26,009 nucleotides of DNA from a virus (taxonomy: Duplodnaviria; Heunggongvirae; Uroviricota; Caudoviricetes). Where the stretch lies: IMG/VR virus record IMGVR_UViG_2695420653_000006, positions 1 to 26,009 of that record; one strand, written 5' to 3'. The translations under genes and the position numbers were made by a program. The notes below the pieces were generated by a model that saw only the letters and a list, made by a program, of their open reading frames with translations, was not told where the DNA came from and did no database searches. Shown here one piece after another: positions 3,733 to 25,001 of this stretch (its first letter is position 1; every line of letters starts with the position of its first letter).

Positions 3733-4056
3733 ATGAAGATGCCAGAAAAACATGACCTGTTAGCTGCCATTCTCGCGGCAAAGGAACAAGGCATCGGGGC
3801 AATCCTTGCGTTTGCAATGGCGTACCTTCGCGGCAGATATAATGGCGGTGCGTTTACAAAAACAGTAATCGACGCAACGATGTGCGCCATTATCGCCTGG
3901 TTCATTCGTGACCTTCTCGACTTCGCCGGACTAAGTAGCAATCTCGCTTATATAACGAGCGTGTTCATCGGCTACATCGGCACTGACTCGATTGGTTCGC
4001 TTATCAAACGCTTCGCTGCTAAAAAAGCCGGAGTAGAAGATGGTGGAAATCAATAA
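3733..4056 (+). CDS. S: Holin/antiholin S (class I holin, dual-start motif Met1-Lys2-Met3)
   Basis: 107-aa translation [62 protein letters not shown]... matches lambda S; three predicted TM segments; second start at 3739. Confidence 0.92.
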
Positions 4057-4516
4057 TCAACGTAAGGCGTTCCTCGATATGCTGGCGTGGTCAGAGGGAA
4101 CTGATAACGGACGTCAGAAAACCAGAAATCATGGTTATGACGTCATTGTAGGCGGAGAGCTATTCACTGATTACTCCGATCACCCTCGCAAACTTGTCAC
4201 GCTAAACCCAAAACTCAAATCAACAGCAGCCGGTCGCTATCAGCTTCTTTCCCGTTGGTGGGATGCCTATCGTAAGCAGCTTGGCCTGAAAGACTTCTCT
4301 CCCAAAAGCCAGGACGCTGTTGCGCTGCAGCAGATTAAGGAACGTGGCGCTTTGCCGATGATTGATCGCGGTGATATCCGTCAGGCAATCGACCGTTGCA
4401 GCAATATCTGGGCTTCACTGCCAGGTGCTGGTTATGGTCAGTTCGAGCATAAGGCTGACAGCCTGATTGCAAAATTCAAAGAAGCAGGCGGAACGGTCAG
4501 AGAGATTGAGGTATGA
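4040..4516 (+). CDS. R: Endolysin R (lytic transglycosylase)
   Basis: 158-aa translation [51 protein letters not shown]... matches lambda R; start overlaps the end of S as in lambda. Confidence 0.92.
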
Positions 4517-4950
4517 GCAGAGTAACCGCGATTATCTCCGCTCTGGTTATCTGCATCATCGTCTGCCTGTCATGGGCTGTTAATCATTACCGTGATAACG
4601 CCATCTCCTACAAAGAGCAGCGCGATAAAGCCACATCCACAATCGCTGACATGCAGAAGCGTCAACGTGATGTAGCAGAACTTGACGCCAGATACACAAA
4701 GGAGCTTGCTGATGCTAACGCGACTATCGAAAGTCTCCGTGCTGATGTTTCTGCTGGTCGTAAGCGCCTGCAAGTCGCCGCCACCTGTGCAAAGTCAACG
4801 ACCGGAGCCAGCAGCATGGGCAATGGAGAAAGCCCAAGACTTACAGCAGATGCTGAACTCAATTATTACCGTCTCCGAAGTGGAATCGACAGGATAACCG
4901 CGCAGGTTAACTACCTGCAGGAGTACATCAGGACGCAATGCCTTCGATGA
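4513..4950 (+). CDS. Rz: Rz i-spanin (inner-membrane spanin subunit)
   Basis: N-terminal TM segment ([31 protein letters not shown]) identical to lambda Rz, then a diverged coiled-coil periplasmic domain; start overlaps the R stop (ATGA). Confidence 0.85.
4712..4897 (+). CDS. Rz1: Rz1 o-spanin (outer-membrane lipoprotein), embedded in the +1 frame of Rz
   Basis: AAGGAG 8 nt upstream of ATG 4712; signal peptide with lipobox (LLVVSAC), proline-rich mature part ([13 protein letters not shown]); wholly inside Rz in another frame, the classic embedded-spanin architecture. Confidence 0.7.
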
Positions 4951-16697: not shown

Positions 16698-18086
16698 ATG
16701 GCTACTTGGCAAGGAACAAATGGCGGATTGTTGGCTGGTATCGGTGGCGTCAACTCAAACGCTCCGAGCGTAAATGACATCGGCAATACGCTTCAGCTTA
16801 TCAGGCAGAACAATGATATTGAGCGTTCAGGCGCTAACAATGTTGGGCTGACTGCTTTGCAAGGCCTTTCAGGTATTGCGGGGGTGTTTCAGCAGACAAA
16901 GCAGGCTCAGCGGCAGAAAGAATTTCAGCAGGCATACGCTAATGCTTATGCGTCTGGTGATCGCGGTGCTTTGCGTCAGTTGGCTACTCAATATCCAGAC
17001 CAGATTGAATCCGTTCGTAAAGGCATGGGATTCATTGATGAAGACCAGCGTAATTCTATCGGCACCTTAGCGGCTGGCGCACGCCTTGCGTCATCGTCTC
17101 CAGAAGCAATGCAATCATGGCTGCAAAACAACGCCAAGGAACTGACTCGCGTCGGTGTTGACCCTAACAGCGTTGCTCAGATGTATCAGCAGAATCCTTC
17201 AGGATTTGGTGAGTTTGTTGATCACCTTGGAATGGCTGCTCTTGGTCCGATTGATTACTTCAATGTTCAGGACAAGATGGCTGGTCGTGAGATTGATCGC
17301 GGAAAACTTGCAGAGACAATCCGCAGCAATCAGGCTGGCGAGGCGCTAACAGCACGAGGACAGAACATCACGATGCGCGGTCAGGACTTATCTGCTTCTA
17401 CTGCGCGACGCGGGCAGGATTTGGCAATGCAGCGAGCGTCAACAAGAGGAACTGCTGGTAATGATGAGCGTACAGTTCAGTTATCAGATGGCAGAACTGT
17501 AACGGTAGGCGGGAAACTTCACGGCGCTGGGGCAAATGCGTTCTACGAAGGCATCGACAACGAGGGGAATATGGTTCGCGTTCCTGCCAGTTCAATCGCA
17601 TCGCCTGCAACATCGTCTGCATCAGCACAAAACTATGCCATGAAGAAGGATATCGACGCGATCGCAAATGCAGATGCTTCTGCTCTCGATTTCATGACAG
17701 GAATGACCGGCGGCGCAGGTAACCCGGCAATTGGTGCTGATGTTCGCAGCCGATTAACAGGAAAAGAGCAGCGCCAGTTATATAACTCAGCACAACGTAT
17801 TCAGGGAAGAATGCAGAATCAGGGCGTGGCGGCAGCAAGGGACATGGGTGCCAGTGGTATTAACACCGTTGCAGAAGCGAAGATGTATTTTCAGGGGATG
17901 CCGCAGGTTGACTATTCAAGCCCGGAGGCTATGCAGCAGTCGATTCGTGAGATTCAGGAATACACCAACAATTATAACCAACAATATAACGTTAATGTTG
18001 GTAAATCTCAGCGGCAGCAATCTCAACCTGCACAGGTATCACAGCCAGCAGCCAGCAGTAACTTTTCTTCACTATGGGGTGATTAA
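16698..18086 (+). CDS. Ejection (injection) protein, P22 gp20-like
   Basis: 462 aa; order gp7-gp20-gp16 conserved; SD AAGGGG upstream. Confidence 0.8.
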
Positions 18087-20083
18087 TGGCTAAAGCATGG
18101 AAAGATGTTATCTCCTCTCCACAGTATCAGGCGTTAGCACCAGAACAAAAAGCGCAGGCTCAGGAGCAATACTTCAATGAAGTCGTTGCCCCGCAAGCCG
18201 GAGAAAATGCAGAGCAGGCTAAGCAAGCTTTCTATGCTGCCTATCCATTGCCATCTGTGCAGCCAGTGGAGACACAACAACCAGTAGCACAGCAACAACC
18301 ACAGCAAAGTGGATTTATGTCTGATCTTGGTGAAGCAGTAAAAGAGACTGGTCGCGGACTGGTGCAGGCTGGCGTGAACGTGGCAAACATACCTGCATCA
18401 GTTGCCGATGCTGTAACAAGCGCGGCGGCTTGGGCTGGCGGTAAACTTGGCATTGGCGATGGGACATATCAACCAGCGCCACGAGTAACAACGCAGGGAT
18501 TAGAGCAGGACTTTGGCCTTCAGCAAGGTGCGCTGACTCCACAAACGACAGAGGGAAGGGTGTTTGCTGAAGCATTGCCTTACCTCACTCCTGCTGGCGT
18601 TGAGAGAGCGGCGGTACAGGCGCCAACACTTGCTGGTCGAATTGCTCAGGGGGCAACTCGCCTTCTAGCAGAAAACGCAGTTGGATCACTTGCTGCAAAT
18701 AGTGCGAAAGATGATGCGGAAGCACTCGCCACCGATTTAGGCGTTGGTGTACTTGCTGGCGGTGCTATTAACGCTTCCGGACGTGGATTAGGTGCTGCTT
18801 ATCGTGGCGTTCGTGGTGCTATCGCGCCAGAAGCGCAGCAGGCTATCAGATTTGCAGAGCGTGAAGGAGTTCCTCTGCACACCACAGACCTGTTACAACC
18901 AACTTCCCGCGTCGGAAAAATGGCGCAGACTACAGCAGAAAATATCCCTCTGGCTGGCACAAGCGGAATGAGATCAACGCAACAGGAAGCGAGAAGCCAG
19001 TTGGTGCAGAGATTTGCTGATAAATTCGGTGAGTATGATCCAGCTGTTGTTATTGACAGCCTTAAAGCGAAAACATCAGGAATTCGTCGTGCCGCCGGTA
19101 ATCGACTGGAGCAGGTACAGAATGCAATGGCAGGAATCAACATTCAACCTGCCAGAGCAATTCAGCAGATAGATACTGAGATATCTAACCTGCAGAAGCT
19201 TGGTAAGGTTGCTGATAACGAGACTATTTCAAAACTTCAGTCCTATCGTGATGAGCTTGTTCGCAATGCTAGTCCTGATGGTCCGGTAAATCTGGATTTG
19301 AAGCAATTAAGCGATCTGCGCAGCCAGTTCAGAATGGACGTGAAGGGGGAACGACCAGTGTTACCAAACCGTTCCGATGCTGCCATTCAGCGCGTTTACA
19401 AGGCGATGACAGACGATATCAATGGTGCCATTGGTCAGAATCTTGGCAACGATACTCTCCGTAAATATCAGCAGGCCAATGCCGTCTACGCTGACGAAGC
19501 GGCGAAACTAAAGAATACCAGGCTGAAGAATGTTCTCATGAAAGGCGACCTGACGCCGGAAGTTGTCAACAACATGCTATTCAGCAAGAACAAATCGGAA
19601 ATTAAGACGCTGTATAACTCAGTTGGTCGTGTTGGCAGGGCGCAAATGCGCAATGGCATCATTGGAAAGGCGATGGAGAAATCAGGTGGTTCCCCTGATC
19701 AGTTCCTTCGACAGCTTAACATCCTGCAAAACCAGACTGGCATCACATTTAAGGGGCAGGACGCTGCTTATCTGAAAGGATTGAAAAACTACCTGCAATC
19801 CACGCAGCAGGCTGCAAAAGCGGCAGTAACAACACCAACAGGGCAGCAAACCATCCCGTTCATTATCGGGTATGGGACAGCAATGAACCCGGCGACAACT
19901 GGCGCAGCGGTAAGCTACGGACTTCTTACTCGCGCCTATGAGAGCGAGCCATTCAGAAATGCAATGCTCCGAATGGCAAACACCCAACGCGGATCAACAG
20001 CGTTTGAGAAAGCCATGCAGCAGGCGCAAAAGGCCATTAACGCCCTGACTCAAGGTGCCAAGTCTGATGCGTTGTCAGAATAG
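18086..20083 (+). CDS. Ejection (injection) protein, P22 gp16-like
   Basis: 665 aa; last gene of the + strand ejection-protein trio; start overlaps previous stop (TAATG). Confidence 0.8.
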   Translation: MAKAWKDVISSPQYQALAPEQKAQAQEQYFNEVVAPQAGENAEQAKQAFYAAYPLPSVQPVETQQPVAQQQPQQSGFMSDLGEAVKETGRGLVQAGVNVANIPASVADAVTSAAAWAGGKLGIGDGTYQPAPRVTTQGLEQDFGLQQGALTPQTTEGRVFAEALPYLTPAGVERAAVQAPTLAGRIAQGATRLLAENAVGSLAANSAKDDAEALATDLGVGVLAGGAINASGRGLGAAYRGVRGAIAPEAQQAIRFAEREGVPLHTTDLLQPTSRVGKMAQTTAENIPLAGTSGMRSTQQEARSQLVQRFADKFGEYDPAVVIDSLKAKTSGIRRAAGNRLEQVQNAMAGINIQPARAIQQIDTEISNLQKLGKVADNETISKLQSYRDELVRNASPDGPVNLDLKQLSDLRSQFRMDVKGERPVLPNRSDAAIQRVYKAMTDDINGAIGQNLGNDTLRKYQQANAVYADEAAKLKNTRLKNVLMKGDLTPEVVNNMLFSKNKSEIKTLYNSVGRVGRAQMRNGIIGKAMEKSGGSPDQFLRQLNILQNQTGITFKGQDAAYLKGLKNYLQSTQQAAKAAVTTPTGQQTIPFIIGYGTAMNPATTGAAVSYGLLTRAYESEPFRNAMLRMANTQRGSTAFEKAMQQAQKAINALTQGAKSDALSE

Positions 20084-20173: not shown

Positions 20174-20659
20174 TTATCTGATGTTACTGCTACTGTTGCA
20201 TGTGACTGTATTTCCAAACCCTGAATTGCAGTTTGTGTAAGTGTCAACTCGTGTTGGATAGGGTTGAGTTATAACAGGCTGTCTCGCTTTTTGCTCGATC
20301 GCTTGCATTGTGTTTACAGCCTGATAATTCAATAAAGCCTGCTGGAATGCTTGGCTTTGTGCTATTTGTTGTGCTTGTTCTTGGCTTTGTAATTGAACAT
20401 AAAGATTCTGAAGCTCAAGTCTTGCCTGTGCGTCACTTATCTTGCCTTCATCGACACCTTGCCCGAGCATCTTTGCAGCAAGGACATACAGTTTAGGTGT
20501 TGGTGCTGATGCCATGCGTGAGTCGTTCTTCACACTGGCATCAAGGCAATTAGCCATATCGCTAAGCTTTTGATAGCGTTGTTCGCAACTTGCTTGATAG
20601 TCACTTACTTTTGCGCATCCAACCAGCAGAAGCGGGATAATTAACAGTGATTTTTTCAT
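20174..20659 (-). CDS. Predicted lipoprotein (161 aa), candidate superinfection-exclusion/moron gene in the sieA position
   Basis: ATG at 20659 preceded by AAGGAGAG; signal peptide with lipobox MKKSLLIIPLLLVGC; Q-rich helical middle; C-terminal Cys pair (TNCNSGFGNTVTC). The upstream in-frame start at 20695 has no RBS. No family recognised. Confidence 0.65.
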   Translation of the reverse strand: MKKSLLIIPLLLVGCAKVSDYQASCEQRYQKLSDMANCLDASVKNDSRMASAPTPKLYVLAAKMLGQGVDEGKISDAQARLELQNLYVQLQSQEQAQQIAQSQAFQQALLNYQAVNTMQAIEQKARQPVITQPYPTRVDTYTNCNSGFGNTVTCNSSSNIR

Positions 20660-20729
20660 ATGGTTAACTCTCCTTAGTTTTTCACAGGATATCATGAAGG
20701 CAATGCCATTTTAGCCGGAAGCTAGATTT

Positions 20730-20999
20730 CTATGTTTCCTTTTTATTATTGCTATACATGGTCTTAAGCGTTTCAAAAACCATTTTCTTAACCATATCAG
20801 ATTGTTGTTCTGCCATACGCTCTGCATCGTCAATGTAAACTGATACAGAGCTTTGTTTAGCCAATGATTCTTCAATCGCTGCAATTATCTCTGAGTTCAG
20901 CGACCTGTTATTCATCTTCGCACGCTGTTTAATTTTCGCGTGAAGTTCATGCGGAAGTCTCAAGTGAAACTGCGCCTCGTCGTATTTGCTGTACATCAT
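20730..20999 (-). CDS. mnt: Mnt-like ribbon-helix-helix repressor (Arc/MetJ superfamily)
   Basis: Translation from Met at 20999 (MMYSKYDEAQFHLRLPHELHAKIKQRAKMNNRSLNSEIIAAIEESLAKQSSVSVYIDDAERMAEQQSDMVKKMVFETLKTMY...) aligns with P22 Mnt (…NGRSMNSELLQIVQDAL…DAERLADEQSELVKKMVFDTLK…) from memory; GAGG SD upstream. Confidence 0.8.
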   Translation of the reverse strand: MMYSKYDEAQFHLRLPHELHAKIKQRAKMNNRSLNSEIIAAIEESLAKQSSVSVYIDDAERMAEQQSDMVKKMVFETLKTMYSNNKKET

Positions 21000-21127
21000 T
21001 GATGCCTCACCAGTTGGGTGGAATGGCATCGTAACCTACTGGATAAATACTCAATAGTACCATTTCGGTATGCAATCACATCATGGTTGCATCATATCAT
21101 TCGTCTGGAGCAATGAAATGTCAGATA

Positions 21128-21628
21128 TCACCTACTCAACAGATGGTCAGCAACCATGTTTGCTGCCTTATAAGCTATAGCAGCTTCATCAATGGTGTTG
21201 AATCTCCCAAGGGTTATGTTTTTACCTGAGACATTTATCTGAGCTTGCCATTGATTTCTGGCTTGACAGAAAGTTACCCCCTTGATTCCAGCATTGCTAT
21301 TTCGAGGTCCGACATTTAATGCATTTACGACTCTGCTGACATCCCTAAGGTTTGAGATTGCGTTATTTCTTCTGTTTCTATCAATGTGGTCAATCTCTTG
21401 TTTTGGCCATTCGCCATATACATACAGCCAGGCAAGTCTATGTGCAAAATATCTTACGCCATCAATATTAATTGCGTTATATCCATAAGAAATTGTGCCA
21501 GCAACTTTCCCAACAGCACCTCTGGCGCTTAATTTCTTTTTCCAAGTGAAAATTCCTGTTTCTTTATTGTAATCGAGAACCTCCATAAGGCGCTCCCGAG
21601 TTACTACCTCGTGACGTCTCTTACTCAT
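21128..21628 (-). CDS. HNH endonuclease with AP2-type DNA-binding domain (free-standing homing-endonuclease-like)
   Basis: Translation from ATG 21628 (SD GGAG): HNH motif region [18 protein letters not shown] followed by an AP2-like domain ([40 protein letters not shown]); AT-rich codon usage. Confidence 0.75.
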
Positions 21629-21641
21629 TATTTTCTCCGGA

Positions 21642-23486
21642 ATGTTTATTATGCCAGAACAATTATACAACGTTGTTGTTTCACAACCAAGTCAGTTATT
21701 TACTTTAGCTCGCTCGTTTAAAGCAAATGCCAATGGCAAAATTTATATCGGTAAAATTGACACTGACCCTGTAAATCCTGAAAACCAGATTCAGGTTTAT
21801 GTGGAAAACGAAGACGGCTCTCATGTTCCTGTATCGCAACCAATCATCATTAATGCTGCTGGTTACCCTGTATATAACGGACAGATTGCCAAGTTCGTAA
21901 CTGTGCAAGGCCATTCTATGGCTGTTTATGATGCATATGGTGCGCAGCAGTTCTATTTTCCGAATGTGTTAAAATATGACCCAGATCAGGCATATTATCG
22001 TGCTGAAAAAGACATTAAAAGATCTGGCGCTATCGAAACAAAAATACAAGACGCTATTAATTCATCCGTCTCAGGTCAGACGGTGTTAACAATTAATGAA
22101 GATGAGGTTGTTGATTCTATTAACAATGATTATGGTGTGGAAATCGATGCTAGAAGGGGAAGAGTTTTTAATAGAGATGGTGTCCAGTTATCAACATACA
22201 CAAATCCGAGGAATAGATTTGTTATAGGTCAAGAGTATTTAAATTATGTTACAAATAAACTTATTAACGGTGACGGAGTAACTTCAGATAAAAAAACATA
22301 TATTTTATGGTCTGGAGACTCCACTATAGTTGGTGTAAACTCTGAGTCATGGCCTCCAGCCACTATCGCTGATTTTTATGCAAAAAGGTATGGAATTATT
22401 GATGTAAAAAATACATCGTTAGGTCATTCAGGTAAAACTCTATACGAATGGGGTAATTGGTATATTGATCAGGAATGGTCTGTTTTTTCTGCTGCTGATT
22501 TGATTGTTTTACGATGGGGAATTAACGATCCATATTATGGTTATACATTGGATCAAGTAAAAGACGCATTAGATAGAGGTCTTTCCAAGTTACGAAATAA
22601 CAAATCAGTTTCCCAGCAATCAATTATTATCATGTCCCCAAACTCAACATCAGACACACCAAACGGACGTGATGAAAAATGGTATGAACAGTTAACAGCC
22701 GTGCTTAGAGCTAAAGCTAAAAAATATAAGTGCATGTTTTTTGACACTTACGGTATGTGGCAGGATTCCAGAGGCGCAGCAGGTAACTGGCTTGATAATC
22801 CATATGGGGATGGTCGCGGAATTCATCCAAATTATGTTTTTAGCGCCCAAATTCACCATGAGTTACTTGATTACATATATGGCCCATGCAAAGTAGTAAA
22901 TGGAAGTTCTAATTTATTTTCTAACAATGGTTCATCTTTGCAATTTGTTGGTAGTTCATATCCACCAAATACGTTTCATATGGGGACTTCATGGTGGAGA
23001 ACAAATCCTGATGATTCTTCTTGGCCTCTTGATGGTGTTATTCAGGTCGATAGATTTGTTGATGGAGTAGTGTTGCAAAAATTATATGGATATATATCTG
23101 AAAGTAGCAGAGTGTGTTTTACTCGCATAGGAAGGATAAGTGAGAACACATGGTCACAGTGGCGTGGTAAGCAATATGAAATATCTGGCCTGTTACAAAA
23201 TGGATGGGTTATAGGAGAATCAAGGAAAGGGACATACCAAAAATCTCTGGATGGTATTATAAATATAAATTGCGTTTTAACTGGAGGGGCAACTTCTGTT
23301 GGAACGGTTATAATGAATCTTCCTTCAGGGTTCAGGCCAGAAAAAGATATATCTTATATACCTTGTGGAACAAACAATGCTATAGCACTGATCAATATTT
23401 CGGCTAACGGAAATGTTACAATTCAATCATTTCCGTCAGGTTCTGTTCTTACTATAGCAACATCATTCCCATCAATGGTTGATTGA
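21642..23486 (+). CDS. Tailspike protein: P22-type head-binding N-domain fused to an SGNH/GDSL-hydrolase (esterase) receptor-binding domain
   Basis: Residues about 20-115 match the conserved P22 gp9 head-binding domain ([38 protein letters not shown]...[15 protein letters not shown]...NVLKYDPDQ). Downstream, SGNH blocks in canonical order: GDS ([11 protein letters not shown], Ser227 codon near 22320), G block (LGHSG), GxND (LRWGINDP), DxxH (DGRGIHPN). Strongly AT-rich after the N-domain. Confidence 0.85.
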
Positions 23487-23607: not shown

Positions 23608-24765
23608 TCACTCCACCTTTTCATCAAGCCAGTCCGCCCACCACTGCATCATTTCTCTGCGCTTATCGAGATACTGAGCATGGTTGTAAATACCGCGCAC
23701 AGATCCACCGTTGGCATGTGCAAGTTGCACTTCAATAGCGTCAGCAGGCCATTCGTGCTCGTTCATAATCGTGCTGAATTCATGCCTGAATCCGTGACCG
23801 CTTTCCAGACCCTCATAGCCGATTTGTTTGATCACAAGCAATACCGCGTTCTCGCAGATTGGCTTCTTCTTATCGTTACGCCCGGCAAAAACAAACTCTG
23901 ATACTGGTTTGGTGATGGAGCTTAACGTAGTGAGAAGTTCAACCACCTGGTCTGACATCGGGACCACATGAATTTTGCGTCCCTTCATCACACTGGCGTC
24001 GATGGTGATAATCCTGTTTTCAAAATCGACGTTCTTCCATTGCATGGAACGAAGCTCTTTTGTTCTGAGGGCTGTGTAGCGTAAAACTTTGGTCGCAATG
24101 AGCGATACGATACTTCCTGAAAATGTTGCCAGTGCTTTGTTGAATGCAGGGATCTGGTCTGCAGGCAGAAACGGGAAGTTTTTCTTGCGGTATCCCTTCA
24201 TTGCGTCAGCAAGGTCAGGTGCCGGGTTATATTTAGCTCTGCCGGTGACAATAGCGTAACGGAAAACCTCGCCGCATCTTCTGCGTGCTTTGTTGGCTCG
24301 CTCCATTGCACCGCGATCTTCGAATCTGCGGATTACTTCCAGCAGTTGCATCGGCTCAATATCCTGAATCTCAAGACCGCCGATGATGGGTAAAATGTCG
24401 TCATCAAACATTTTGGCAAGTTCAGTCGCATATCCTACTGACCAGACTTGCTTCTTGTGCTCGTACCATTCCTTGTAAATGGCGCTAAAGGAATTGTTGT
24501 TAGACGAAGCCTTTTTCGCTTTTACCGGATCGATGCCAACCGAGATGTCTTTCCTCGCGGTCCATGCTTTATCTCTTGCCTCCTGCAAAGTCATTAGCGG
24601 ATATTTTCCTACGGTCAGGATTTTCTCCTTACCGTCAATCTTGTAGCGAAGCTGCCATACCTTTTTCCCGGATACAGGGACATAAAGGTACAGGCCATTA
24701 CCATCGAGAAGGCGGTATGGTTTTTCTTTCGGCTTTGCTGCTTCAATCTGCTTAACGGTGAGCAT
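23608..24765 (-). CDS. intS: Tyrosine integrase, P4-family, argW-targeting type (IntS-like)
   Basis: 385 aa from ATG 24765 (MLTVKQIEAAKPKEKPYRLLDGNGLYLYV... arm-binding N-domain); catalytic R…HxxR…Y signature (…RTKELRS…HGFRHEF…RGIYNHAQY); adjacent to the 3' end of argW. ORF track starts at an upstream GTG (24801) that I consider less likely. Confidence 0.88.
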   Translation of the reverse strand: MLTVKQIEAAKPKEKPYRLLDGNGLYLYVPVSGKKVWQLRYKIDGKEKILTVGKYPLMTLQEARDKAWTARKDISVGIDPVKAKKASSNNNSFSAIYKEWYEHKKQVWSVGYATELAKMFDDDILPIIGGLEIQDIEPMQLLEVIRRFEDRGAMERANKARRRCGEVFRYAIVTGRAKYNPAPDLADAMKGYRKKNFPFLPADQIPAFNKALATFSGSIVSLIATKVLRYTALRTKELRSMQWKNVDFENRIITIDASVMKGRKIHVVPMSDQVVELLTTLSSITKPVSEFVFAGRNDKKKPICENAVLLVIKQIGYEGLESGHGFRHEFSTIMNEHEWPADAIEVQLAHANGGSVRGIYNHAQYLDKRREMMQWWADWLDEKVE

Positions 24766-24926
24766 GGGTAAAAATCCGGTGGGTAAAATTATTTTATCCA
24801 CTTTTTACCCGTCATGGAGTGCGGCTGTCAACGATCTGAAGCGAACCATGACGAACTGTGAATCTACGGAAGGCTTGATATTCAGGGGATTTTGCGGACT
24901 AGCACGGATGGTAGCGAACTGATAAA

Positions 24927-25001
24927 TGGTGTCCCCTGCAGGAATCGAACCTGCAATTAGCCCTTAGGAGGGGCTCGTTATATCCATTTAACTAAGAGGA
25001 C
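24927..25001 (-). tRNA. argW: tRNA-Arg (anticodon CCU)
   Basis: Minus-strand sequence GTCCTCTTAGTTAAATGGATATAACGAGCCCCTCCTAAGGGCTAATTGCAGGTTCGATTCCTGCAGGGGACACCA folds as a cloverleaf: 7-bp acceptor stem, T-loop GGTTCGATTCC, anticodon loop CCUCCUAAG with CCU at 34-36, encoded CCA. Confidence 0.92.

What the first reader, a model, noticed from the sequence alone, without database searches (positions are those of the whole stretch)
20174..20659. Prophage lipoprotein with Q-rich helical domain and C-terminal Cys pair, candidate injection-blocking exclusion factor
The N-terminus is a textbook lipoprotein signal (MKKSLLIIPLLLVGC) with a strong SD. The mature protein has a glutamine-rich predicted coiled-coil (…QARLELQNLYVQLQSQEQAQQIAQSQAFQQALLNYQAV…) and ends with CNSGFGNTVTC, which could form a disulfide-bonded loop. 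Small phage lipoproteins (Cor, Llp) are known to block receptors or DNA entry of superinfecting phages. The gene's position directly after the ejection-protein genes fits that role, but the sequence does not resemble any of those known factors that I can recall.
Basis: partly seen in the sequence, partly recalled or inferred. Interest (0 to 1): 0.55.

Follow-up and report, generated by a model that had tools for sequence, protein, structure and literature searches.

The report
Prophage lipoprotein replacing the sieA gene
A P22-like prophage carries a well-conserved lipoprotein gene, probably outer-membrane-anchored, in exactly the place (and in one relative behind exactly the promoter) where phage P22 keeps its injection-blocking gene sieA, so it is a good but untested candidate for a new factor that keeps other phages out.

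Summary
Window 20174-20659 (minus strand) encodes a 161-aa protein with a rule-conforming lipoprotein signal, a Gln-rich long helix and a C-terminal Cys pair.

It is a real gene under strong purifying selection (pN/pS 0.07). It matches phrog_6067 (function unknown) over its full length and occurs in 186 of 5426 complete E. coli genomes.

The new point is positional. The gene occupies the slot of P22 sieA, the first gene after ejection gene 16 on the opposite strand. In one relative (L122) about 230 nt upstream, including P22's annotated sieA promoter and Shine-Dalgarno, are nearly identical to P22. Similarity breaks right after AAGGAG, so the ORF is a precise allelic replacement of sieA. The window keeps the proximal part of that leader.

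Published RNA-seq for the 97.5%-identical Gally gene in E. coli LF82 shows transcription in the lysogen, 4.5-fold above prophage background, while ejection genes stay silent.

There is no sequence or fold similarity to SieA, Cor, Bor, TraT or Lpp, nor to any solved structure. Distant relatives are short chromosomal lipoproteins outside prophages.

Superinfection exclusion is the best-supported reading (about 0.45) but rests on position and expression only. A host-fitness role is the main rival. Interest is moderate.

The parts
20174..20659 (-). Lipoprotein CDS (161 codons plus stop), member of phrog_6067
   Evidence: Translation; full-length PHROG match at E=1.6e-110; 94 homologues; pN/pS 0.07.
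20615..20659 (-). Signal peptide with lipobox LVGC; Cys15 (codon 20617-20615) is the predicted lipidated first residue of the mature protein; +2 is Ala
   Evidence: The PS51257-type rule is met here and in 78 of 78 close homologues, and +2 is never Asp. C15 is nearly invariant in 64 relatives.
20447..20608 (-). N-terminal helical domain (residues 18-71; helices 18-28, 32-45, 47-51, 53-70) containing the invariant pair C25/C38
   Evidence: AF2 pLDDT 93-98. C25 and C38 are invariant and always 12 residues apart. This is the part shared with the distant chromosomal relatives.
20285..20434 (-). Long Gln-rich helix (residues 76-125, about 7.5 nm if straight); its distal half is a spacer of variable length
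   Evidence: AF2 predicts a helix at pLDDT about 90. It has 15 Gln in 50 residues. The A79-to-C144 distance is 29-75 residues across the family, about 65 in phage forms and about 36 in chromosomal forms.
20183..20245 (-). C-terminal beta-hairpin (residues 139-159) with the invariant pair C144/C154 and the motif T-x-C-x3-G-N-x3-C-x-S
   Evidence: AF2 predicts strands 139-146 and 152-159 at pLDDT about 73. The Cys pair is invariant in 64 sequences and the loop is mostly 8 residues. It is the most constrained segment: pN 0.0025 against pS 0.27.
20670..20698 (-). Leader shared with the P22 sieA upstream region: TTCATGaTATCCTG...AAAACTAAGGAG (SD AAGGAG at 20675-20670)
   Evidence: Alignments A4, A5 and A7. 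In L122 the identity to P22 extends about 230 nt upstream, through the annotated PsieA promoter, and ends right after AAGGAG.
20730..21029 (-). Context: Mnt/Arc-family repressor gene, immediately upstream on the same strand
   Evidence: Pfam Arc (3.7e-15) and Repressor_Mnt (5e-12). The Mnt-lipoprotein order recurs in almost all of the 80 loci.
18086..20083 (+). Context: gene 16-type ejection (DNA transfer) protein, converging on the lipoprotein gene with a 90-nt gap
   Evidence: phrog_770 'DNA transfer protein' at E=3e-237. In 76 of 80 related loci a converging ORF of at least 500 codons ends within -7 to +91 nt of the lipoprotein stop.

Best explanation
The gene encodes a prophage-expressed envelope lipoprotein that is an alternative cargo of the sieA slot of P22-like phages.

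Predicted mature protein: a small helical domain next to the membrane, locked by a C25-C38 disulfide. A roughly 7-nm Gln-rich helical stalk follows. It ends in a highly constrained C144-C154 disulfide-locked beta-hairpin that would reach into the periplasm.

Most likely role: superinfection exclusion. From the outer-membrane side it would bind either an envelope component that incoming phages need, or the ejection-protein conduit itself (the gp7/gp20 outer-membrane pore and periplasmic tube). It would thereby stop DNA delivery after adsorption. This would complement the inner-membrane protein SieA, which acts on gp16/gp20.

Shown: real conserved gene; lipoprotein signal; sieA-slot allelism; transcription in a lysogen.
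Inferred: outer-membrane location, disulfides, exclusion function, target.
For: (1) Same slot, strand and size as P22 sieA: P22 gene 16, then sieA on the opposite strand, 164 aa. Here it is gene 16, then the lipoprotein on the opposite strand, 161 aa.

(2) Precise cassette swap. In L122 about 230 nt upstream of the lipoprotein ATG are nearly identical to the P22 sieA upstream region, including the annotated promoter and AAAACTAAGGAG. Similarity ends immediately after the SD. The window keeps the proximal 29 nt of this leader. Leavitt et al. 2024 (PMC10883804) showed that sieA plus 85 bp of upstream sequence is sufficient for exclusion, so that region drives expression without other phage genes.

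(3) Across 120 P22-like loci, 23 carry the lipoprotein, 11 carry a true SieA and none carries both. Where present, the lipoprotein is always the first gene after gene 16.

(4) Expression. In the PMC9928086 S1 Table, the 97.5%-identical GALLYPH_13/LF82_138 gives 70 normalised reads in LB against a prophage median of 15.6. That is second only to the c2 repressor. It rises to log2 10.3 in macrophages while the ejection genes stay at 2.3-4.1.

(5) Envelope targeting: lipobox in 78 of 78 homologues, and +2 never Asp.

(6) Strong constraint: pN/pS 0.07, with the C-terminal hairpin most constrained. Four Cys are invariant over 64 diverse relatives.

(7) Nearly identical alleles sit next to gp16 proteins that are 63-99% identical to the reference types. 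The cassette therefore moves between phages as an independent module.

(8) Other occupants of the slot are also exported proteins: SieA, a 129-aa signal-peptide protein and a second lipoprotein.

[quoted passage not shown] An outer-membrane lipoprotein would therefore be in the right compartment.
Against: - No phenotype is known for any member. All members are annotated hypothetical or lipoprotein.
- The absence of co-occurrence with SieA is weak statistically. About 2 co-occurrences would be expected by chance, and the loci are related to each other.
- Distant relatives sit in ordinary chromosomal neighbourhoods without prophage genes. The fold therefore has some cellular envelope role that need not concern phages.
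- The LF82 authors' 5-fold cutoff was just missed, and they called Gally devoid of morons.
- The consensus scan found no promoter or terminator for the gene in the window.
Confidence: 0.45

Rival explanations
1. It is a lysogenic-conversion factor for host fitness rather than for phage exclusion. An outer-membrane lipoprotein would change envelope properties such as serum or complement resistance, survival in macrophages or stress tolerance, in the manner of lambda Bor or Iss.
For: The Gally orthologue rises about 16-fold in LF82 inside macrophages, and about 4-fold in the B1/B6 samples (bacteria without macrophages), relative to LB. Gally is common in Crohn-associated E. coli according to PMC9928086. 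The distant chromosomal relatives imply a cellular envelope function.
Against: There is no similarity to Bor, Iss, TraT or Lpp. Induction in macrophages is shared by the whole right end of the prophage, including the tailspike gene, so it looks regional. LF82 lacking Gally survived in macrophages as well as wild type (PMC9928086). The gene sits behind the sieA promoter in place of a proven exclusion gene.
Confidence: 0.25
2. It protects against other envelope-crossing threats, not phages. Examples are colicins or other bacteriocins, contact-dependent or type VI effectors, or conjugative DNA entry (TraT-like surface exclusion). It would do so by masking or altering an outer-membrane or periplasmic component.
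Against: No toxin or effector gene lies next to it in the prophage or in the chromosomal loci examined. There is no Pfam or PADLOC match. The slot is otherwise used for phage exclusion.
Confidence: 0.1
3. It serves the phage's own lytic cycle. It might protect released progeny from wasteful ejection on cell debris (the second role proposed for T5 Llp), or assist envelope disruption at lysis.
For: T5 Llp is an outer-membrane lipoprotein with such a dual role (own knowledge). The gene lies at the end of the virion gene block.
Against: It is transcribed against the late operon, and is transcribed in the lysogen when late genes are off. The lysis cassette with its own Rz gene lies elsewhere in the window, around 3733-4950 by ORF layout (not checked further). 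Many closely related prophages with 96-99%-identical gene 16 lack the gene entirely, so it is dispensable for growth.
Confidence: 0.08
4. It is a decaying or functionless passenger ORF.
For: Some alleles are frameshifted, truncated or fused (P0081, P0079, P0076, P0019, P0093).
Against: pN/pS is 0.07 over 43 alleles. Four Cys are invariant over relatives down to 24% identity. The gene is present in 186 complete E. coli genomes and is transcribed.
Confidence: 0.03

Closest known systems
P22 SieA (superinfection exclusion A; types A, B and C of Leavitt et al. 2024, PMC10883804)
   Same: Same genomic slot, strand and size. It shares the upstream leader: the full PsieA region in L122 and the proximal part in the window. 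Both are prophage-expressed and both are envelope proteins.
   Different: No sequence similarity (BLASTP finds nothing at E<=100). SieA is a polytopic inner-membrane protein with the cytoplasmic motif FxRYPxEAxxFNK. This protein has a cleavable lipoprotein signal, no transmembrane helices and no such motif, and is predicted to be anchored to the outer membrane.
T5 Llp and phi80/N15/T1 Cor (outer-membrane lipoproteins that inactivate the FhuA receptor)
   Same: All are small phage-encoded lipoproteins. The mode of action proposed here is analogous: acting from the periplasmic face of the outer membrane on something the incoming phage needs. Llp is also disulfide-stabilised (own knowledge).
   Different: No homology: the only PHROG Cor match is the signal peptide at E=0.035. 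P22-like phages use O-antigen, not FhuA. This protein is about twice the size and mostly helical with a long stalk. No target is known.
Lambda Bor / Iss (prophage-expressed outer-membrane lipoprotein giving serum resistance)
   Same: A prophage-expressed lipoprotein cargo gene transcribed in the lysogen.
   Different: No Pfam Lambda_Bor match, and a different size and fold. No virulence phenotype is known.
TP-J34 Ltp (Streptococcus phage exclusion lipoprotein that blocks DNA injection via the tape measure protein)
   Same: A lipoprotein of a temperate phage that blocks DNA entry by binding a protein ejected from the virion. This is the closest analogue for the proposed mechanism against the gp7/gp20 conduit.
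   Different: Ltp acts in a Gram-positive host and is surface-exposed on the cytoplasmic membrane, with an unrelated fold of helix-turn-helix repeats (own knowledge; cited in PMC10883804). No similarity was detected in any search.
phrog_6067 (PHROGs v4 family, function unknown)
   Same: Full-length match, residues 1-161 on profile positions 1-161, E=1.6e-110. This is the family the protein belongs to.
   Different: The family carries no functional annotation.

Membership tests
Bacterial lipoproteins (Lgt/LspA/Lnt substrates; PROSITE PS51257 rule) | Positively charged n-region, uncharged h-region, lipobox [LVI][ASTVI][GAS]-C with the Cys within the first ~35 residues | tested here: met
   MKKSLLIIPLLLVG-C15. 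A regular-expression form of the rule is met by 78 of 78 full-length close homologues and by 58 of 64 in the wide alignment.
Bacterial lipoproteins (Lgt/LspA/Lnt substrates; PROSITE PS51257 rule) | Actual lipidation and cleavage by signal peptidase II (globomycin-sensitive) | not testable with these tools
   Needs labelling or globomycin experiments.
Outer-membrane (Lol-sorted) lipoproteins of Enterobacteria | No inner-membrane retention signal (no Asp at +2) | tested here: met
   +2 is Ala here. Among 78 close homologues +2 is A (72), V (4) or T (2), never D. Real localisation is untested.
P22 SieA family | Sequence similarity to SieA types A, B or C, including the motif FxRYPxEAxxFNK and 3-4 transmembrane helices | tested here: not met
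   BLASTP finds no alignment. The SieA HMM and the motif search hit 11 and 10 ORFs in 120 loci, none of them the lipoprotein. There is no hydrophobic helix after the signal peptide.
P22 SieA family | Location between gene 16 and gene 9, transcribed against the late operon from PsieA | tested here: met
   This is positional allelism only, not homology.
Cor (phrog_1119) / Llp receptor-blocking lipoproteins | Sequence similarity of the mature protein | tested here: not met
   The PHROG scan gives Cor at E=0.035 over residues 1-31 only, which is the signal peptide. No Llp family appears among the matches. The Llp sequence was not compared directly.
Lambda Bor/Iss, TraT, Lpp | Match to the Pfam families of these lipoproteins | tested here: not met
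   Pfam scan: 0 families at E<=0.1.
phrog_6067 | Full-length profile match | tested here: met
   E=1.6e-110, residues 1-161 on profile 1-161 of 161.
Moron / lysogenic-conversion cargo gene | Transcribed in the lysogen independently of lytic genes | tested here: met
   Published RNA-seq for the 97.5%-identical Gally orthologue: 4.5-fold above prophage median in LB while the ejection genes stay at background (PMC9928086 S1 Table). This was not measured for the window's own prophage.
Moron / lysogenic-conversion cargo gene | Own promoter and terminator; presence or absence between otherwise near-identical phages | tested here: inconclusive
   Presence or absence next to 96-99%-identical gene 16: yes. 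The PsieA leader is shared. The consensus scan found no sigma-70 site or terminator for the gene in the window, and in the window the -35 part of PsieA is replaced by the end of mnt.
Superinfection exclusion proteins (functional class) | Expression reduces infection by a superinfecting phage after adsorption | not testable with these tools
   No experiment on any member was found in the literature searches.

The most novel reading that the evidence does not exclude
The lipoprotein is the first exclusion factor known to act at the outer-membrane end of a podovirus DNA-delivery conduit. [quoted passage not shown] It would have been recruited by P22-like phages from a widespread, uncharacterised family of proteobacterial envelope lipoproteins and lengthened by about 30 residues of stalk. 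In E. coli it, and not SieA, would be the main exclusion system of P22-like prophages (186 genomes against 21 for SieA type B).
Probability: 0.2. Interest if true: 0.65.

Novelty: new variant of a known kind. Interest (0 to 1): 0.45.

Why it matters
P22 is the model for how short-tailed phages build a channel across the Gram-negative envelope. SieA is so far the only genetic handle on that step, and it works from the inner membrane.

An unrelated lipoprotein that evolution has swapped into the same expression slot, probably anchored to the outer membrane, would give a second and independent probe. Escape mutants could point to the parts of gp7, gp20 or the needle that act at the outer membrane.

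The gene is also common: 3.4% of complete E. coli genomes carry it, more than the two other slot cargoes counted (147 for the 129-aa protein, 21 for SieA type B). It is transcribed in a Crohn-associated strain and annotated everywhere as hypothetical.

More broadly, the result marks the gene 16 to gene 9 interval as a hotspot. At least four unrelated exported proteins alternate there behind a shared leader. That makes it a small, well-defined place to look for new envelope-level phage defences.

Tried and rejected
- Family scans of the protein. Pfam, NCBIfam and PADLOC gave nothing. The only NCBIfam line, GspK at E=8.6e-4 and 18.9 bits against a cutoff of 130, is a low-complexity match. It probably also explains one source's 'GspK' name for P0023.
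- PDB sequence search with the family profile: best E=0.4, to coiled-coil proteins. Rejected.
- The search for related loci with wide alignments failed, because no stretch was conserved enough.
- The second homologous-protein search, with the wide profile, returned mostly the same close family.
- A BLAST cluster suggested that L122 carried both SieA and the lipoprotein. Inspection showed the 'SieA' member was only the translated sieA leader. This turned into the key observation.
- Neighbourhoods of distant relatives (L004-L007, L206) share no conserved partner gene, so they give no functional lead.
- tblastn of two distant members against 50,697 phage genomes found only the same five P22-like phages.
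- Literature searches found no paper on this protein.
- o-spanin was considered and rejected: wrong location, wrong strand, too large and not proline-rich.

Full report
**The observation**

The window is the right arm of a P22-like (Lederbergvirus-type) prophage. The gene order is as follows.
- A gene 16-type ejection protein at 18086-20083 (+).
- The ORF in question at 20174-20659 (-).
- An Mnt/Arc-family repressor at 20730-21029 (-).
- An HNH endonuclease at 21128-21670 (-).
- A tailspike with the P22 head-binding domain at 21642-23486 (+).
- A P4-type integrase at 23608-24801 (-).
- tRNA-Arg(CCU) at 24927-25001 (-).
- A host membrane-protein gene running to the end of the window.

The ORF translates to 161 aa: MKKSLLIIPLLLVGC...CNSGFGNTVTCNSSSNIR. 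AAGGAG lies 10 nt before the ATG at 20659. The longer mechanical ORF that starts at 20695 is only the translated leader.

The lipobox satisfies the PROSITE-type rule here and in 78 of 78 full-length close homologues. The residue after the lipidated Cys is Ala, Val or Thr and never Asp, which in Enterobacteria predicts Lol sorting to the outer membrane.

The protein has five Cys: C15, C25, C38, C144 and C154.

**It is a real, constrained gene**

- There are 94 homologues, all from Enterobacterales and all named hypothetical or lipoprotein.
- The protein matches phrog_6067 (function unknown) over its full length.
- It occurs in five sequenced phages, all P22-like: Gally, vB_EcoP-720R6, VSe13, Proteus phage Brookers and Salmonella phage MS2 LVA.
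- The gene is in 186 of 5426 complete E. coli genomes, always chromosomal.
- Among 43 distinct alleles pN/pS is 0.07. The C-terminal 24 residues are the most constrained, with pN 0.0025 at pS 0.27.
- Some alleles are frameshifted or fused.

**Anatomy**

A first AlphaFold2 run with 31 close homologues was poor (pLDDT 63). A run with 64 diverse relatives gave pLDDT 84.8, with three parts.
- A compact helical domain, residues 18-71, at pLDDT 93-98.
- One long helix, residues 76-125, at about 90.
- A beta-hairpin, residues 139-159, at about 73.

In the 64-sequence alignment C25, C38, A79, C144 and C154 are invariant. C25 and C38 are always 12 residues apart. The C-terminal Cys loop is mostly 8 residues. 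Two periplasmic disulfides are therefore likely, but this is an inference.

The Gln-rich part is a spacer of variable length. The distance from A79 to C144 ranges from 29 to 75 residues, about 65 in the phage forms and about 36 in the others. I therefore do not accept 'coiled coil' as shown.

**Relatives**

An exhaustive profile search found 248 clusters at E<=0.001. Most are lipoproteins of 125-140 aa with the same N-terminal domain and the same C-terminal T-x-C-x3-G-x4-C hairpin, but with a short linker.

Where context could be read, these relatives lie in ordinary chromosomal neighbourhoods.
- One lies next to uvrC, pgsA and biotin genes (L007).
- One lies next to glycan genes (L004).
- One lies next to a TIR/STAND gene (L005, L006).
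- In Pectobacterium peruviense one lies between holE and a CxxCxxCC gene, near dsbB and minCDE (L206).

No partner gene is conserved among them. Seeding tblastn with two distant members still finds only the five P22-like phages among 50,697 phage genomes. The phage gene therefore looks like one captured and lengthened branch of a chromosomal envelope-lipoprotein family of unknown function.

**Comparison with known families**

- No Pfam, NCBIfam or PADLOC family matches.
- No solved structure matches by sequence.
- The PHROG 'Cor' match covers only the signal peptide.
- BLASTP against P22 SieA finds nothing.

**The main finding: allelism with sieA**

In P22, sieA (164 aa) is the first gene after gene 16, on the opposite strand, with its promoter annotated just upstream.

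I fetched 118 P22-like loci through the conserved tailspike head-binding domain and classified the ORFs upstream of the tailspike.
- By profile search, 23 loci carry the lipoprotein, 11 carry a true SieA (types A and B), none carries both and 86 carry neither.
- Among the 75 loci with a complete gene 16 end, the lipoprotein, when present, is always the first gene after gene 16 on the opposite strand. Mnt usually follows on the same strand.
- In a further 80 IMG/VR loci with 97-100%-identical lipoprotein the order is almost always Mnt, lipoprotein, then converging gene 16.
- In 76 of those 80 loci a converging ORF of at least 500 codons ends within -7 to +91 nt of the lipoprotein stop.
- The partner gp16 proteins are 63-99% identical to the reference types. 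The cassette therefore moves independently of the ejection proteins.

A BLAST cluster that seemed to join SieA, a 129-aa signal-peptide protein and one ORF in L122 turned out to be held together by the translated upstream leader.

Aligning the DNA shows the following for L122 (IMGVR_UViG_2675903658_000008). About 230 nt upstream of the lipoprotein ATG are nearly identical to the P22 sieA upstream region. The identity runs through the annotated PsieA promoter and AAAACTAAGGAG. The two sequences part immediately after the Shine-Dalgarno.

The window shares TTCATGaTATCCTG...AAAACTAAGGAG (20698-20670) with P22. Further upstream the end of mnt replaces the -35 part. Gally and Brookers have other upstream contexts.

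Leavitt et al. showed that sieA with 85 bp of upstream DNA is enough for exclusion (PMC10883804). They do not discuss alternative genes at this place.

**Expression**

Phage Gally is a prophage of E. coli LF82, and its GALLYPH_13 is 97.5% identical to the window protein. The S1 Table of PMC9928086 gives these values.
- In overnight LB, GALLYPH_13 (LF82_138) has 78 and 62 normalised reads, against a prophage median of 15.6.
- That is the second highest value in the prophage, after c2 at 727.
- It falls just under the authors' 5-fold moron cutoff of 78.1, which is why they wrote that Gally has no morons.
- In macrophages at 1 h the log2 value is 10.3, against 6.1 in LB. The three ejection genes stay at 2.3-4.1.

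The gene is thus transcribed from the prophage independently of the late operon. [quoted passage not shown]

**Interpretation**

Shown:
- a conserved gene with a lipoprotein signal;
- positional replacement of sieA behind the same leader;
- lysogen transcription of a near-identical orthologue.

Inferred:
- outer-membrane anchoring;
- two disulfides;
- a stalk that presents the constrained hairpin in the periplasm.

The most likely function is superinfection exclusion at the DNA-delivery step, which I put at about 0.45. [quoted passage not shown] Another is an outer-membrane component used at that step, by analogy with Llp/Cor and Ltp. No target is identified.

The main rival is a host-fitness conversion factor (0.25). 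It is favoured by the chromosomal relatives and by the macrophage data. It is weakened by the regional character of that induction and by the reported lack of any effect of Gally on macrophage survival. Protection against other envelope-crossing agents, a role in the phage's own lytic cycle, and a junk ORF are less likely.

**Novelty and interest**

If it excludes phages, it is a new and unrelated family within a known functional class, phage-encoded exclusion lipoproteins, with an unusual architecture and a likely new point of attack. If not, it is still the commonest of the three sieA-slot cargoes I counted in E. coli: 186 genomes, against 147 for the 129-aa secreted protein and 21 for SieA type B.

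The claim is directly testable with existing P22, HK620, CUS-3 and Sf6 tools. I score interest at 0.45.

Noticed in passing
L105:1783-2172 (-), also L065, L108, L116, L124, L114, L055, L089: A 129-aa protein with a cleavable signal peptide (MKQFLTAMFLFISFGATA/ECWVVGDMRG...KVKRKC; phrog_2651, function unknown, no Pfam) is a third alternative occupant of the sieA slot. It sits behind the same TATCCTG...AAAACTAAGGAG leader and occurs in 147 of 5426 complete E. coli genomes.
   Followed up: partly
L001:3447-3866 (Gally GALLYPH_14); also L074, L108, L124, L052, L117: A second small lipoprotein (MKRIIGVVAGAILLSGC...; phrog_6823, weak PEGA-domain match at E=0.004) lies in the same interval on the other strand, next to either the lipoprotein or SieA. 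In LF82 it is transcribed as strongly as GALLYPH_13 and reaches log2 11 in macrophages.
   Followed up: partly
L109:2869-3450 (-), also L048, L064, L114, L069, L090, L092: A 193-aa cytoplasmic-looking protein (phrog_23516, unknown function, no Pfam) is another recurrent cargo between sieA and mnt.
   Followed up: no
window 21642-23486 (+): The tailspike combines the P22 head-binding domain (residues 4-116) with a GDSL/SGNH hydrolase domain (residues 225-397) instead of a glycosidase-type receptor domain. This suggests an esterase (deacetylase-type) receptor-modifying spike. GC falls to 34-39% here.
   Followed up: no
window 21128-21670 (-): An HNH endonuclease with an AP2-type domain sits between mnt and the tailspike gene, and its 5' end overlaps the tailspike start by 29 nt. 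It is present in some loci and absent in others that are otherwise near-identical, as expected of a mobile homing endonuclease.
   Followed up: partly
window 20730-21670: The immI region is reduced. An Mnt-like repressor is present, but there is no arc or ant gene, which leaves Mnt without its usual target. Most lipoprotein-bearing loci share this layout (52 of 80 have only tailspike, Mnt, lipoprotein, gene 16).
   Followed up: no
window 20183-20245 (-), C-terminal hairpin codons: Synonymous divergence among alleles is about three times higher in the last 24 codons (pS 0.27) than in the rest of the gene (0.08-0.10), while nonsynonymous change is almost nil. This suggests recombination with diverged alleles under very strong protein constraint.
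   Followed up: no
proteins P0081, P0079, P0076, P0019, P0093 (relatives elsewhere): Frameshifted, truncated or fused alleles of the lipoprotein exist. One is a fusion of the first ~30 mature residues to a recombinase fragment (P0093, Pfam PF04404), and one 128-aa form occurs on 6 contigs.
   Followed up: partly
window 23608-25001: A P4-type integrase lies next to tRNA-Arg(CCU) (24927-25001, minus strand), followed by a host inner-membrane protein gene. I take this to be the right prophage-host junction at an argW-type attachment site; the site was not mapped.
   Followed up: no
L206:7438-7635 and L002:1513-1806: A DNA polymerase III theta (holE-like) gene lies next to the chromosomal lipoprotein homologue in Pectobacterium peruviense. 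A theta-like gene is also annotated near the tailspike of Proteus phage Brookers. This may be coincidence.
   Followed up: no
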